The translations under genes were made by a program, and so were the position numbers. The notes under the pieces were generated by a model. It worked only from the letters and a program-made list of their open reading frames with translations, did not search any database and had not been told where the DNA came from. 64,000 nucleotides of DNA, taken from the NCBI GenBank assembly GCA_964016885.1, contig OZ024746.1:29698001-29762000 (forward strand). Direction: 5' to 3'. This DNA comes from Eledone cirrhosa (Eukaryota). Each line of letters opens with the position of its first letter. The stretch's first letter is position 1. Of this stretch, positions 36,375 to 55,950 are shown piece by piece.

Positions 36375-37068
36375 ATATAGTAGAATAATCGAGTATCGAA
36401 AAATCGGCGCACGAGTTCACGATAAACAAAATTCGACATGAGTGGCAGAGGGCTCAATAATTCAGATAAATCAGAGCTATAACTACCGTTAAAATACCAA
36501 CACACATAGATTATGTCTAAAATCAACCATCGACCGAAAAATTACGATCCGGAATAAATCAATAAATCATATGAATGTAAAAAGCTTACCCGGACCCGCT
36601 AGAAAGATGGTAAATCTAGCTTCTTGGGTTTCTGTAAATCCTTAAATCGCCCACTATCAGCCCACATAAAAATATATAAGACTTCTAGGGAGCGGCGGAC
36701 AGGAAATACTTTATCAACGAGCTTTGTCCAAACGAATAAAAAAGCACAACCCTAGCTGAAAACGCACATGGAATCCAGCAAGGGAGATAACCTCTATATC
36801 CGCGAAAAATATTCTGGAATGTGGAAAATCACATATCGAATAAGAGTGCTCAATAGGCATGTTAAAATAAACAGGAGCTATTCATCATTTAATAGAATCG
36901 ACAAAAAATGAACAATAAAATTAACTGGTCAATAGCTAAGTCTAGAGCTAAATATAGTAGAATAATCGAGTATCGAAAAATCGGCGCACGAGTTCACGAT
37001 AAACAAAATTCGACATGAGTGGCAGAGGGCTCAATAATTCAGATAAATCAGAGCTATAACTATCGTTA
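36375..37068 (-). mobile_element. Non-coding tandem-unit element: 117-bp terminal direct repeats, 577-bp period
   Basis: 36375-36491 equals 36952-37068 (1 substitution), (TA)n flanks, and it is homologous to 55266-55950 in opposite orientation. Confidence 0.85.
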
Positions 37069-37699
37069 TATATATATATATATATATATATATATATATA
37101 TATATATATATATATTTCGAGAAAGTTCTCCAGGATAGTTAACCAGGAATCTTTAAAAATCACCGAAGTTAATAAAGAACTTACTAGACCTACAAAACCA
37201 AATCGTAAAATCATAATATTATAAAATTAAATCAAATTGTTTAGAACTACAACTGTAGTCATTCTTTTCCTTCTTTTAAATATACCTAACTGTACCAAGG
37301 ATTTCACACATTTTCCACTACAAACATACACACACACACACACACACACACACACACACACACACACACACACACACACACACACACACACACACACACA
37401 CAATCTGTCATTTTAATAAATATATATATAGTTAATAAATGAAACAAAGAAAACACAGGAGGCACTTTTTTACACGGTTATATTAGGTTAATACACACTC
37501 TGTTATACCATTGAGCGCTCACACTGTTGTGACCTCCAGTTATCAACAAAATTACTGAATAACAATGAATACATACAAGCACGCGTGCACACACACATGT
37601 ATATATATATATATATATATATATATGAGCGGAACAAGTAAACATTAAATAATCTTTTAAATAAATTAAAATACGATTTAAATATTTACCTCTTCTAGT

Positions 37700-37780
37700 G
37701 CCATGACCGTACGGTTTCGCTTATCAAAAGATTGGAAATTCAGAGAATTTCCAATGGAAAGATATAGCTCTTCAGATAGC
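37700..37780 (-). ncRNA. Type I hammerhead with fully canonical core and extended stem II
   Basis: GCUAU-CUGAAGA-GCU..UAUC..AUUGGAAAUUC-ucu-GAAUUUCCAAU..GAUA-AGC-GAAACCGUACGGUC-AUGGC. Confidence 0.88.
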
Positions 37781-37954
37781 TTTTCCAAATCTACTAGACA
37801 TAAGTCCGTATAGATGTAGATATATCACCCTCTGCCCAGTGAATGAATCAAGCCGTTAAAATGACCCACACACTTATCATTTATATATATATATATATAT
37901 ATATATATATATATATATATATATATATATATATATATATATATATATATATAT

Positions 37955-38157
37955 ATAGGAACGAGTAGGACCCCGACGGCTGAACTCAAGCCGTTTCGAC
38001 GGCGAATTCACACTTTTTAGTTCAGAATTAGCCGTCGAAACGACTTGAGCTCAGCCATCGGGGTCCTACTCGTTCCTATTACCCACTCTACTACCCTAAG
38101 TATTGAGTACTTTGGTGCGTTATGGTCCACCTGGTTCCTTACTACATTTCCTTCGTT
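37955..38157 (+). mobile_element. Pseudo-LTR fragment with an inverted duplication of about 55 bp at its 5' side
   Basis: 37955-38009 is the reverse complement of 38025-38079 with few mismatches. Confidence 0.8.
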
Positions 38158-39485
38158 TTATATATATATATATATATATATATATATATATATATGTGTG
38201 TGTGTGTGTGTGTGTGTGTGTGTGTGTGTGTGTGTGTATGTGTGTGTGTGTGTGTGTGTGTGTGTGTGTGTGTGTGTGTGTGTGTGTCCGCTTATCTCTG
38301 CTACATGTGTACATATATGTGTAGATATCTAAGTGTATGTCGCTGTGTAGTTTTAAAATGTGTGTTTAAGCTAAACAACATGTTAGTAGTAAAGTCGATG
38401 GTTTACTTCAATCACGTCTCTAAGCAAAACAACGGAAAGTTTCACTATCAGAAAATCCGAGGGGGAAAGACATCTTTAAATATATGTTTCGTTTTTCATA
38501 GAAACTAAAGCATCAACGTGTCCTTCACATGCAATAAGGACACACTCACATGATCACATTGATACACACACACACTCTCTCTCTCATGTAACTACATTCA
38601 TATACATACACTCACACCTCCCTTTTATTAATTCACACGTACACTATCTCTTATACGCACACACCATCATACACACACATCTCTCATATATATAGATACA
38701 CATTCATACATAGACATGCACACACGTAAACAAACTTATGTTACACTCTATCCTCATTCACACACACCGTCTCCCATGACCATATACACGTATACATTAT
38801 CACAGGCACACTCACAAATACTATCTCCTCATTCACAGACGCTCGCACTCAGTATCATCTAAATCCGCACTCACTATCATCTACATCCGCACACTATCTT
38901 ACATATCTACACACTATCTGTTACATCCGCACATAAACACACACATGCACAATCTCAGTGTTCTACACACACCCACACGCTAACACGCATACAATCACTG
39001 ACACAAACCCAAACTCACACACAATTTCAAAAACACAAACGTACACACATATACACACTAACACAAACATACAAGCACATATACATACGCAGACACACAA
39101 TCACTGATACAAAATCAAACACACACATATAGACAATGACGCACACAAACATACGCAAACACACACACACCACACACACACCCACCTACACACACACTCG
39201 TCTACACTAAAAACCCAATCTTTCTTCTACCTGTTATCTACATCGTCTACACCTCTCATGAATCAATACTCTAAAAATAAACATGTTTCAATTGTCGTTC
39301 TGGGTAAAAAAAATAAATATGAAATTTAAAAATATATATAATTTAACAAATAAAACAATTTTAAAAAATAATAAATAAAATAAGGTAAAATAAATATTGA
39401 TATTTTAAATCAATACAAATTTGTTATGGAAGATCAAGCCAAAACGTAATAGAATATGTGGGACGCGGAGTATATATATTTTTAG

Positions 39486-53792: not shown

Positions 53793-54799
53793 TATGAACT
53801 ATACGCAGGTATTTTACGTCTTGATGTGGTAGCTAAGTATATGTTATGTTTATACCATTACTTATTTGTATAGGTAAGTATATATTACCTGTATGTTTTG
53901 TGAAGGTACGTATACTTTCTCGTACGTATATTTGCCTGTATATGTTATGGCGTATATATTATATATTCTGGTACATGTACATTTGGTTATGTGTATACGT
54001 GAGTTTTGCGTATGTGTGAGCATGCGGGTTCGTATGTATGTAGGATATGTTTATATGTGTACTTTGTGTTTTGGTCGACGTACGTCTGCGAACATATGTG
54101 TATTTACATGTAGGTGTGTGTGTGCGCGCGTTATATACGTATTTATTTATTTATATACGTTTATTTAATTATATGTCTACACGCACACACACACATATAT
54201 ATATTTTTTATATACATTTTTATCTGTATCTGGCGTATACGTTCGTATGTGTGTGGGTACAGGTGTTGCGTGGGTTCTGTATGTGCGTGCGGATTTTTGT
54301 GTGTACGTGCTTGTATTTGCATAGCGTATGCTTGTGTATGTACGTATATGGATACGTGTATGTATTTATTTAATTTCAATTACCTCTGTATTTTATTTAC
54401 TTTATTTTTAACTCTGAAGCCGAGAATCATTCGGTTTCCTAGTTAGAATTTTAGTCTACGACTTCAGTTATACCATTTAGGTGGTTTTGACTTTCCGTGC
54501 AATTGTTCTAACCGTTTCACATAATGACGTATTATCTTCGTTTTTTTCGTTCATTGCCAGAGAACGTCTCCATGAACCACCTAATAGAATATTAGTCTAC
54601 GACTTCATTTATACCATAAACGTGGCTTTGTCTTTGCGTGAAATTGTTTTTCAGCGCTCCAAATAATGACGTATTATCTTCGTTTTTTTCCGTTCTTTGC
54701 CAGGGAACGTTTCCACGAACCAAAGTATCGTCTTCCTGTCTTCCCCCGGTTGCAACGTTTTTGAAACATTTACTTCTGCGTTCGCAAATTGACTTTTTT

Positions 54800-54850
54800 A
54801 GTTTCAGAAGATCCCGTTAAGGGTGAAAGCAGCGATTCTTTGCTTAAACT
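54800..54850 (+). ncRNA. Hammerhead-like motif in the pseudo-LTR, CAGAAGA core variant (inverted copy at 51679-51729)
   Basis: AGUUU-CAGAAGA-uCCCguuaaGGGu-GAAAGCAG..UUGCUU-AAACU. Confidence 0.6.
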
Positions 54851-54962
54851 TTAATCTGTTATTTTAATAAATATTTTATATATATATATATATATATATA
54901 TATATATATATATATATATATATATATATATAAACGTTCAATCATCTAACAGGAAGGTATAC

Positions 54963-55001
54963 GATGCTGATGACAGCTAAGAACCTCGAAACTAGTTCAT
55001 C
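54963..55001 (+). ncRNA. Minimal hammerhead with decayed stem II
   Basis: GAUG-CUGAUGA-cagcuaagaaccuc-GAAACUAGUU-CAUC, with palindromic stem III. Confidence 0.6.
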
Positions 55002-55265
55002 ATTCCTTTGTCAGTGTTGAACAAAATGGCAACGATGGTTGCCGAACACTATACGGCTTAATTCGGGCTGTTTGTTTACAAACAAACCGAAGATTATAAT
55101 AAATGTTCGGTAAACCCATACATACATATATATATATATGTGTGTGTGCATGTATGTATGTATATACATACTGCTGTACGTCTGTATACATATATGTATG
55201 TACGTATACATACTTACATTTATATATATATATATATATATATATATATATATATATATATATAC

Positions 55266-55950
55266 CATTGAGCGCTTGCCACACATCTCCGAAGTTATTT
55301 TTCGTTAATTCCTGAGCCGATATACGATTCTCGCTAATTTATATTTGTATTAATCTCCAGAGTCTAGCTACTGACCAGTTAATTTTCTCGATTTTTTAGT
55401 TGATTCTATTGACTGATGAATAACTTATGTTAACTTATAACCAATCTATTGAGAGCTTTATTCAATTTGTGATGTTTTGCATTCTTGCAATAATACACAC
55501 AACTGAATTCATTCGCCTAAAATATGGGTTGCCTCTCTTGCCGAGCTCTACGTGGGGTCGGTAACGGTCATTCCTTTAATTAGCACTCGAACTAAAACCT
55601 GTTGAAAAGGTGGCTTCCTTGTTCAATCATCTTACCAGAAGCCTAACATTATTTATGTAAGCGGACAGTACTTGATTTAGGAGTCGCAGAAACCCAAATG
55701 CTGGATTTTACAAACCATCCAGGGGTCCGGGTAAATTTTCAATCACATATATTTTTATTTGTTTGACCCGAATTACTTGGTCGTTTTTTTGGCTGTGCGG
55801 ATGATTGTTTAACCATCGTCTCAGTGTGTTTGGCCTTTAACGTATGTTGTAGCTCTGGTTCATCTGAATCATTGAGCGCTTGCCACACATCTCCGAAGTT
55901 GTTTTTCGTTAATTCCTGAGCCAATATACGATTCTCGCTAATTTATATTT
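55266..55950 (+). mobile_element. Non-coding tandem-unit element: 81-bp terminal direct repeats, 604-bp period
   Basis: 55266-55346 equals 55870-55950 (2 substitutions), (TA)n flanks, and it is homologous to the reverse complement of 36375-37068. Confidence 0.85.

What the first reader, a model, noticed from the sequence alone, without database searches (positions are those of the whole stretch)
36375..55950. Family of about 600-nt non-coding, structured, terminally redundant elements in (TA)n with no canonical ribozyme core
Seen: 36375-37068 (minus, 577-bp period) and 55266-55950 (plus, 604-bp period) are collinear but clearly diverged homologues. Shared blocks include TAGCTAYTGACCAGTTAATTTT, GATTCTATT..MTGATGAATA, CAGAAACCCAA and GGGTCCGGGTAA. 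Each is a 1.1-1.2-mer with near-identical terminal direct repeats, the same 3' end, different 5' truncation, (TA)n flanks and no recognisable coding capacity. Helices are retained despite sequence change. CUGGA/UCCAG versus CUAGA/UCUAG is compensatory (55701-55722 versus 36598-36620). GCUC-UGGUUC-AUCU-GAAUCA-UU-GAGC versus GCUC-UGAUUU-AUCU-GAAUUA-UU-GAGC and UAAC/GUUG versus UAAC/GUUA are closed by UGGY/GCCA into a three-way junction (55824-55890, 36438-36507). A GAAACCC-stem-GGGUC segment looks like a hammerhead 3' half, but no CUGANGA with a matching stem I adjoins it. Inference: a retrozyme-like parasite copied from a circular or multimeric RNA by PLE machinery, possibly processed by a divergent or unknown self-cleaving motif.
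Basis: partly seen in the sequence, partly recalled or inferred. Interest (0 to 1): 0.8.

Follow-up and report, generated by a model that had tools for sequence, protein, structure and literature searches.

The report
Retrozyme family with a disguised hammerhead
A roughly 600-base non-coding repeat, present in thousands of copies in this animal genome, carries a stretched-out variant of the hammerhead ribozyme that standard searches miss, and it likely cuts its own RNA and is likely copied back into DNA by Penelope-type retrotransposon enzymes.

Summary
The two window elements are real and belong to a large family: at least 5,308 core-motif matches (control 8), about 20 subfamilies, units of about 550-620 nt, a fixed 3' end in (TA)n, variable 5' truncation, and arrays of 16 or more units. 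The headline 'no ribozyme core, perhaps an unknown motif' is not supported. Each unit holds a complete type I hammerhead fold. Its core reads UUGANAA (U3-A8 in place of C3-G8, a published variant) and lies 76-81 nt upstream of GAAA, across an elongated stem II. Core positions are near-invariant while N7 takes all four bases. Stems I, II and III each show compensatory changes. A downstream strand that would block stem I changes together with it. In one subfamily group, 5' ends pile up just after the predicted GUC^ site (30 of 74 passes; background about 5%). Verdict: a non-LTR retrozyme, most likely moved by Penelope-like elements, and a new variant of a known kind. Cleavage, circular RNA and the autonomous partner were not shown; no RNA data were available.

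The parts
55266..55950 (+). Element E2: 1.13-mer of a 604-nt unit, 5'-truncated, fixed 3' end running into (TA)n; terminal repeats 55266-55346 and 55870-55950
36375..37068 (-). Element E1: 1.2-mer, period 577 (family period 605 less a 28-nt deletion that removes the blocking strand); 117-nt terminal repeats
55597..55601 (+). E2 hammerhead stem I, 5' strand (pairs with 55728-55732)
55602..55608 (+). E2 hammerhead core, positions 3-9, variant UUGANAA (U3-A8)
   Evidence: variant described in PMC3088659 section 8 and PMC4209133
55609..55688 (+). E2 elongated stem II domain (80 nt); one unpaired base on each side of the G-C closing pair
55689..55727 (+). E2 G12-A13-A14, A15.1-U16.1 and stem III (ACCC/GGGU with an inner stem 55701-55722), ending in the GUC triplet; predicted cut between 55727 and 55728
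55728..55732 (+). E2 stem I, 3' strand; family 5' ends pile up from 2 to 19 nt after the predicted cut
55766..55770 (+). Blocking strand: alternative partner of the stem I 3' strand; changes together with it
36588..36722 (-). E1 hammerhead: stem I 36722-36718 with 36592-36588, core 36717-36711, GAAA 36632-36629, predicted cut between 36593 and 36592
55854..55878 (+). GCUC/GAGC hairpin with a covarying inner stem (E1 counterpart within 36438-36507)
55357..55425 (+). Long hairpin at the unit start; its CUGAUGA look-alike is a helix strand that is not conserved, so it is not the ribozyme core
55930..55950 (+). 3'-terminal segment: CUCG pairs with YGAG about 100 nt into the next unit, closing a domain around the fixed end (inferred site where reverse transcription starts)

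Best explanation
The unit is a non-coding tandem repeat whose sequence forms a complete type I hammerhead fold with a U3-A8 core, and it is likely a non-LTR retrozyme: its multimeric transcript is predicted to cut itself at GUC into unit-length RNAs that would be partly circularised and likely reverse-transcribed into (TA)n by a Penelope-like element. Shown: the family, its fixed 3' end, its variable 5' ends, the hammerhead pattern of conservation and covariation, the blocking strand that covaries with stem I, the pile-up of 5' ends at the predicted cut, and near-perfect long arrays. Inferred: stem I forms during transcription, before the blocking strand 35-65 nt downstream is made, and the RNA cuts. 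The blocking helix then shuts the ribozyme off in the finished monomer or circle. The PLE reverse transcriptase starts inside the RNA, about 225-245 nt after the cut. On a cut linear RNA it runs off at the cut, giving inserts of about 220 or about 830 nt; on a ligated circle it goes round, giving arrays. Hydra-clade elements are the likeliest helpers because they are abundant here and are reported to insert into (TA)n; no sequence link to a helper was found.
For: Core: in 147 distinct segments, positions 3, 4, 5, 6, 8 and 9 read U 145, U 147, G 147, A 146, A 141, A 145, while position 7 is A 49, U 43, G 29, C 25, gap 1. None of these segments had been selected on that motif. In 14 diverse copies the 25 invariant columns include positions 3-6, 8, 9, 12-15.2, 16.2, 16.1 and 17 (8 of the 14 were fetched on the core motif). 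Stem I pair 2.2-1.2 is C-G in 8, U-G in 7 and U-A in 5 of 20 clusters, never a mismatch. In the 14-copy alignment 91.8% of cells pair, stems I, II and III each have a pair changed on both sides, 0 of 500 shuffles reach the covariation score, and slid controls give 14-48% pairing. On 19 representatives: 87.6% paired, 2 of 500 shuffles. A strict descriptor passes 79 of 147 segments, always with a GUC triplet, against 2 of 2,940 shuffled segments and 0 of 570 shuffled monomers. Blocking strand: ACCCG in 80 of the 97 copies tallied in the five commonest classes with CGGGU; ACCUG in 4 of 6 tallied copies with CAGGU, and in 5 of 5 displayed copies of that subfamily. The three more AT-rich windows give 3 of 120. 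Arrays: 15 of 15 units identical in L362, the commonest unit identical in four arrays with different 5' ends, and locus-specific variants shared by all units in L035 and L059/L060. Hydra-type PLEs with frames of 713-834 aa are abundant.
Against: No cleavage assay and no RNA evidence. The active fold is rarely favoured by folding energy: it is the minimum-energy fold in 6 of 18 representatives and 0.6-7.1 kcal/mol above it in the other 12. In the two window copies the probability of stem I is at most 0.36, and 0.01 on average in circular monomers. 68 of 147 segments fail the strict descriptor. The stem I change on both sides comes from one or two clades, so it is one or two events; 'pairs with a change on both sides' alone did not exceed shuffles (138 and 191 of 500). 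The neighbouring family E3, which has a standard core, shows no marked pile-up at its own predicted cut (4 of 70, 3 of 29, 1 of 2), so a pile-up is not a general mark of a hammerhead. The E1 subfamily shows 1 of 18 ends within 22 nt of the site. A second hot spot lies at the TA-like unit junction (6 of 18). The L363 and L361 arrays are mosaic. In older E2-type copies 71 variants sit in one repeat only and 11 in both. In PMC11167929 hammerhead mutants did not affect PLE insertion in vitro. In the 2026 preprint 8 of 9 predicted frog retrozymes did not cleave. No helper was identified.
Confidence: 0.75

Rival explanations
1. The hammerhead fold is real and conserved but cuts rarely or only with protein help. 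Copies come from uncut multimeric transcripts by internal priming. The 5' pile-up is a reverse-transcriptase stall at the G+C-rich junction or a transcription start, and long arrays grow by unequal exchange.
For: Low predicted stability of the active fold. No pile-up in the E3 control. Mosaic arrays. PMC11167929 (parts 1-2): uncut RNA is the main substrate and that hammerhead needs the protein.
Against: Arrays of 14-16 units of the L064 subfamily cross the same junction many times, which an intrinsic block of about 37% per pass would make rare if each array is one event. The edge is sharp: one end at -6, the rest from +2 onward. Catalytic positions and a blocking strand are both conserved, which is easiest to explain if cutting occurs and has to be shut off.
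Confidence: 0.17
2. The unit is the ordinary pseudo-LTR of an autonomous Penelope-like element; the copies seen are its truncated 3' ends and solo repeats.
For: Retrozymes are reported to be related to pLTRs (preprint 10.64898/2026.07.22.740005, part 3). U3-A8 hammerheads occur in Schistosoma PLE repeats (PMC4209133). The genome has many PLE families, and the 3' regions of only two were checked.
Against: Upstream of the unit lies another unit or flank, not an ORF, in all 92 3'-anchored alignments. PLE fragments near copies showed no fixed orientation or distance, and the two cases read in full were separated by TA runs. The family profile does not match the 3' regions of two Hydra families. 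The by-eye likeness to one of them is not significant (p about 0.3).
Confidence: 0.05
3. The family is processed by a new class of self-cleaving RNA, or has no ribozyme at all.
For: Rfam gives no ribozyme hit for either copy. There is no CUGANGA sibling family (75 matches against a control of 167).
Against: All hammerhead core positions and the three stems are present with the expected conservation and covariation. Rfam also missed the short hammerhead-like fold at 54800-54850, so its silence is weak evidence.
Confidence: 0.03

Closest known systems
Metazoan non-LTR retrozymes (Cervera and de la Pena 2020, PMC7229834; Li, Clavereau and Pollet 2026, 10.64898/2026.07.22.740005)
   Same: Non-coding head-to-tail repeats with one type I hammerhead per unit, low G+C, dispersed monomers to long arrays, co-occurring with PLEs; unit length inside the 51-972 bp range of the preprint.
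   Different: The core is U3-A8, the stem II domain is 76-81 nt and stem III about 35 nt. The unit is longer than the 170-400 nt circles shown in invertebrates. It carries a conserved blocking strand, whereas PMC7229834 says most metazoan retrozyme circles leave the ribozyme free. Cleavage and circles are untested here.
U3-A8 hammerhead variants (Perreault et al. 2011, PMC3088659 section 8; Schistosoma Cercyon-related min-HHRs, PMC4209133)
   Same: The same compensatory swap of the C3-G8 pair; G10.1-C11.1 with an extra base after A9, as noted for PLE hammerheads.
   Different: The Schistosoma motifs are minimal (about 1,300 hits, mostly single, lacking helix III). Here all three stems are full, two are elongated, there is a second unpaired A before G12, and the motif sits in tandem units.
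Penelope-like elements: Hydra clade and non-autonomous Chlamys/MRC1 (Craig et al. 2021, PMC8557442); Poseidon of Anolis (PMC11167929)
   Same: Fixed internal 3' end, 5' truncation, partial tandems, insertion into (TA)n, hammerhead upstream of the 3' end.
   Different: No ORF and no 3'-end similarity to the two Hydra families tested. The cut lies about 225-245 nt from the 3' end, against about 30-60 nt in other hammerhead families seen in these loci. 5' inversions were seen in 0 of 89 copies against 29 of 70 in family E3.
Plant LTR retrozymes and hammerhead viroids (as described in PMC7229834, discussion)
   Same: Ribozyme predicted to be blocked by a complementary strand in the monomer or circle.
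   Different: Type I, not type III; no LTR, PBS or PPT organisation is evident; one polarity carries the motif; integrated in an animal genome.

Membership tests
Hammerhead ribozyme (type I) | Core 3-9 with a 3-8 pair, U4, G5, A6, free N7, A9 | tested here: met
   UUGANAA; counts per position in 147 segments; U3-A8 is a published natural variant (PMC3088659 section 8)
Hammerhead ribozyme (type I) | G12-A13-A14, A15.1-U16.1, H17 | tested here: met
   Invariant in 14 of 14; A-U pair in 19 of 19; GUC triplet in all 79 descriptor hits; part of the sample was selected on this motif
Hammerhead ribozyme (type I) | Three stems around the core, stem I open | tested here: met
   Pairing 87-95% per stem with a change on both sides in each; stem I 2.2-1.2 paired in 20 of 20 clusters
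Hammerhead ribozyme (type I) | Active fold is thermodynamically accessible | tested here: inconclusive
   Minimum-energy fold in 6 of 18, 0.6-7.1 kcal/mol above it in 12; low probability in the window copies
Hammerhead ribozyme (type I) | Loop 1 - loop 2 tertiary contact | not tested
   Elongated stem II; no contact was modelled
Hammerhead ribozyme (type I) | Site-specific self-cleavage | not testable with these tools
   Only indirect: 5' ends pile up after the site, but not in the E3 control
Non-LTR retrozyme | Tandem non-coding units with a type I hammerhead in each | tested here: met
   Periods 595-615; no shared ORF; core motif at 615-nt spacing in arrays
Non-LTR retrozyme | Dispersed, multi-copy, with PLEs in the same genome | tested here: met
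   5,308 and 3,423 pattern matches, controls 8 and 0; PLE candidates 65,768 and 60,505
Non-LTR retrozyme | Expressed as linear and circular unit-length RNA | not testable with these tools
   No RNA holder listed
Non-autonomous Penelope-like element | Fixed internal 3' end, 5' truncation, partial tandems, microsatellite target | tested here: met
   1,332 matches of the 3' end joined to TA, control 0; ends
Non-autonomous Penelope-like element | Sequence similarity to the 3' end or pLTR of an autonomous family | tested here: inconclusive
   None with two Hydra families; other families not examined
Non-autonomous Penelope-like element | Inverted 5'-truncated segments | tested here: not met
   0 of 89, against 29 of 70 in E3 (test on 22-25 nt of flank); a frequent, not universal, PLE feature
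Non-autonomous Penelope-like element | Target-site duplication | not tested
   Insertion in (TA)n hides it
pLTR of an autonomous PLE | Unit contiguous with an RT-GIY-YIG ORF | tested here: not met
   Not seen in the loci examined, which are a small part of all copies

The most novel reading that the evidence does not exclude
A lineage of animal retrozymes has evolved a viroid-like, switchable hammerhead: a U3-A8 core, an 80-nt stem II and a co-evolving shut-off strand. Its genomic copies record both RNA states, run-off inserts that start at the cut and perfect rolling-circle arrays of about 10 kb. That would be direct genomic evidence for the proposed circular template of Penelope-type retrotransposition, and would mean that standard descriptors miss whole retrozyme families, including some now called ribozyme-free.
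Probability: 0.4. Interest if true: 0.72.

Novelty: new variant of a known kind. Interest (0 to 1): 0.55.

Why it matters
Why PLEs and their parasites carry hammerheads is open: in vitro the ribozyme was dispensable for insertion (PMC11167929), while circles have been proposed as templates (PMC4209133, PMC7229834). This family makes the question testable in one short RNA. It has a predicted cut, a predicted off-switch that natural variation preserves, 5' ends at the cut in one subfamily group and perfect long arrays in another. It also shows a blind spot: thousands of hammerheads missed by Rfam and by a CUGANGA search because of one core swap and a long stem II. The ribozyme class, the core variant and the element class are all known, which limits the surprise.

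Tried and rejected
Rfam on the window and on each copy: no ribozyme among the listed hits. CUGAUGA at about 55413 as the core: it is a helix strand and is not conserved. A type II arrangement, or a sibling family with CUGANGA after the stem I strand: 75 matches against a control of 167. Hairpin, twister, HDV-like and hatchet likenesses were considered by eye from recalled consensus features and dropped; no call tested them beyond Rfam. Likeness of the element's core and 3' end to the 3' end of the Hydra element at 54761-54880: p 0.29 and 0.33 against shuffles, rejected. Hydra ORFs beside L438 and L444 as partners: separated by TA runs. AT richness as the cause of the 5' hot spot: windows at least as AT-rich give 3 of 120; the TA-like junction is a second hot spot. 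Whole-monomer folding was only mildly better than shuffles (z -1.8 on the + strand, 0.07 on the - strand). Sequencing runs: no RNA holder listed. One guessed-RNA run laid nothing; one run of unknown kind laid 2,114 contigs; neither bears on expression. The pattern had a control above the signal (1,444 against 333) and was used only to fetch diverse copies. One search gave 8,273 matches against a control of 4,243; of 20 places fetched from its list, 14 matched the family profile. Rows dropped: 3 of 92 3'-anchored alignments that did not reach the 3' end; 1 of 19 representatives in the energy comparison. 'Octopus' and 'cephalopod' were my guess from a recalled repeat landscape; no call identifies the host. 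Our earlier findings held nothing for this genome or sequence.
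Full report
1. The observation. 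They align collinearly (66% by BLASTN, E 3e-29; 72% over 561 columns), and their terminal repeats match at 79 of 81 and 116 of 117 nt. A profile of the family finds no third copy in the window. The 577-nt period of E1 is a 28-nt deletion: its relatives have 605.

2. The family. The host genome has 3.0 Gb. BLAST gave 4,686 and 2,456 candidates for the two copies, 40 scored in each. A pattern on the core gave 5,308 matches against a control of 8; an independent pattern on the first hairpin gave 3,423 against 0; the 3' end joined to TA gave 1,332 against 0 for one subfamily group. 96 distinct full monomers fell into 16 clusters at 90%, with 54-90% identity between representatives. Later fetches added more distant subfamilies (L442-L453; L448 is 59-65% identical to the window copies). 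Copies end at the same 3' position and vary at the 5' end. Of 92 3'-anchored alignments the median length is 221 nt and 15 exceed one unit. Three concatemerised units share no ORF.

3. The hidden hammerhead. Averaged pairing over 19 circular monomers showed a helix that ends just before AGAAA and begins about 80 nt upstream. Directly 5' of it is UUGANAA, and 5' of that a strand complementary to the bases after GUC. This is a type I hammerhead in which C3-G8 is replaced by U3-A8. PMC3088659 (section 8, read) reports this swap in nature and cites in-vitro activity; PMC4209133 (parts 1-2 of 4, read) reports about 1,300 such minimal motifs in Schistosoma PLE-related sequences. In 147 distinct segments, none then selected on this motif, six core positions are conserved in 141-147 and position 7 takes all four bases; in the 86 not selected on the GAAA side either, all six are invariant. 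Stem I pair 2.2-1.2 is C-G, U-G or U-A in 20 of 20 clusters. On 14 diverse copies 91.8% of cells pair and each stem has a pair changed on both sides; 0 of 500 shuffles reach the covariation score, though 138 of 500 reach the count of such pairs. A strict descriptor passes 79 of 147 segments and 2 of 2,940 shuffles. The predicted cut is 55727/55728 in E2 and 36593/36592 in E1. Rfam misses it, as it misses a short hammerhead-like fold nearby. Against: the fold is the energy minimum in only 6 of 18 representatives and is improbable in the two window copies.

4. A conserved off-state. The strand after the cut has a second partner 35-65 nt downstream (95.8% paired). In circular monomers the blocking helix averages probability 0.44 against 0.01 for stem I. 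Where the strand after the cut changes from CGGGU to CAGGU, the upstream stem I strand reads ACCUG and the downstream partner changes from ACCCG to ACCUG (5 of 5 copies displayed, 4 of 6 tallied). This is one clade, so probably one event. PMC7229834 (parts 2-4 of 6, read) says such blocking is typical of plant retrozymes and viroids and that most metazoan retrozyme circles lack it. The window copy E1 has lost this strand in its deletion.

5. What the insertions record. Among 89 copies chosen only by their 3' end, 25 of 67 that reach the site end within 22 nt after the predicted cut, 0 of 42 in the 22 nt before it, and 5 of 7 on the second pass; background is 4.8%. Offsets near the site are -6, then +2 to +19; the three windows richer in A+T give 3 of 120. 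I noticed the pile-up before recognising the core, but after predicting the site from the 3' half. Against a simple reading: the standard-core family E3 shows no marked pile-up at its cut (4 of 70, 3 of 29, 1 of 2), the E1 subfamily shows 1 of 18, and the TA-like unit junction is a second hot spot (6 of 18). At the other extreme, a young subfamily forms long arrays: 15 of 15 units identical in L362, 12 of 15 in L364, 7 of 13 in L363, with the commonest unit identical in four loci that share the 3' end in TA and differ at the 5' end (one 5' end abuts an assembly gap). Units of L035 and of L059/L060 share locus-specific variants; L363 and L361 are mosaic. The two repeats of a locus differ less than repeats of different loci (0.051 against 0.081, 25 loci; 0.007 against 0.011, 15 loci).

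6. Mechanism. Inferred: a read-through transcript folds stem I before the blocking strand exists and cuts at GUC. Monomers are partly ligated, as shown for other retrozymes with RtcB in vitro (PMC7229834). A PLE enzyme nicks (TA)n and starts reverse transcription inside the RNA, as shown for a Poseidon element (PMC11167929, parts 1-2 of 4, read). The start lies in a domain closed by a CUCG/YGAG helix that spans the unit junction. Cut linear templates give run-off inserts; circles give arrays.

7. The helper. The window holds PLE fragments, and two families with the DKT and CxCX5C motifs that PMC8557442 (passages and section 11, read) gives for the (TA)n-inserting Hydra clade are very abundant, with frames of 713-834 aa. 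The family profile does not match their 3' regions, and a likeness seen by eye was not significant. The family shows 5' inversions in 0 of 89 copies against 29 of 70 in E3, which hints at different helpers. The helper is unidentified.

8. Comparison and novelty. The family meets the testable features of a non-LTR retrozyme and of a type I hammerhead; cleavage and circles are untested, and 8 of 9 predicted frog retrozymes failed to cleave in the 2026 preprint (parts 1-3 of 5, read). Literature searches listed no paper on tandem retrozymes with a U3-A8 core or an elongated stem II. The library is partial, I read no supplements (those of PMC4209133 and of the preprint may bear on this), and Dfam and Repbase were not available. 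PMC7151607 was seen as passages and PMC3884650 as a listing only. Verdict: a new variant of a known kind, interest 0.55.

Noticed in passing
window 32983-33659 (-): A third tandem non-coding family (E3, period 524) with a standard CUGAUGA type I hammerhead whose stems II and III are long; predicted cut 61 nt before its fixed 3' end; 1,141 3'-anchored matches; 29 of 70 copies have 5' inversions.
   Followed up: partly
window 51713-54880 (+), fold at about 54800-54850: Hydra-clade-like PLE whose terminal repeat holds a type I hammerhead-like fold with A at position 4 (CAGAAGA) and a U at position 17; 20 matches of the commonest form in the fetched loci and the window. Activity is doubtful and untested.
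   Followed up: partly
window 29352-29744 (-) and 29899-31466 (+): Two more Hydra-like PLE fragments; the first belongs to a young family with 834-aa open frames, and no CUGANGA hammerhead was found in the three full-length loci read.
   Followed up: partly
window 21554-22812 (+): PLE fragment with a C-terminal GIY-YIG-like domain (Pfam E 4e-4, below the cut-off); clade not tested.
   Followed up: no
flanks of L003-L248: At least 15 other families of standard type I hammerheads, many 30-45 nt before a TA junction; several have a mismatch at the base of stem II.
   Followed up: no
L448 2326-2875, L451 2248-2616 (-), L452/L453: A distant subfamily (59-65% identical to the window copies) that keeps the U3-A8 fold and a hairpin at the unit start.
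   Followed up: partly
L005, L028, L292, L318 5' junctions: Short duplications of the 10-15 nt that follow the predicted cut at the 5' junction, suggesting re-annealing of the cDNA end on the target.
   Followed up: no
L019/L020 about 1310-1370: The element's 5' end is joined without a TA run to the 3' end of the Hydra-like family.
   Followed up: no
window 2136-4257 (+) and 13438-14159 (+): A broken non-LTR retrotransposon ORF (RVT_1, zf-RVT) and a fragment that looks like a Tc1/mariner-type transposase (recalled likeness; no Pfam hit).
   Followed up: no
window 10112-10311: A long inverted repeat hairpin (spurious MIR841 hit), possibly a MITE.
   Followed up: no
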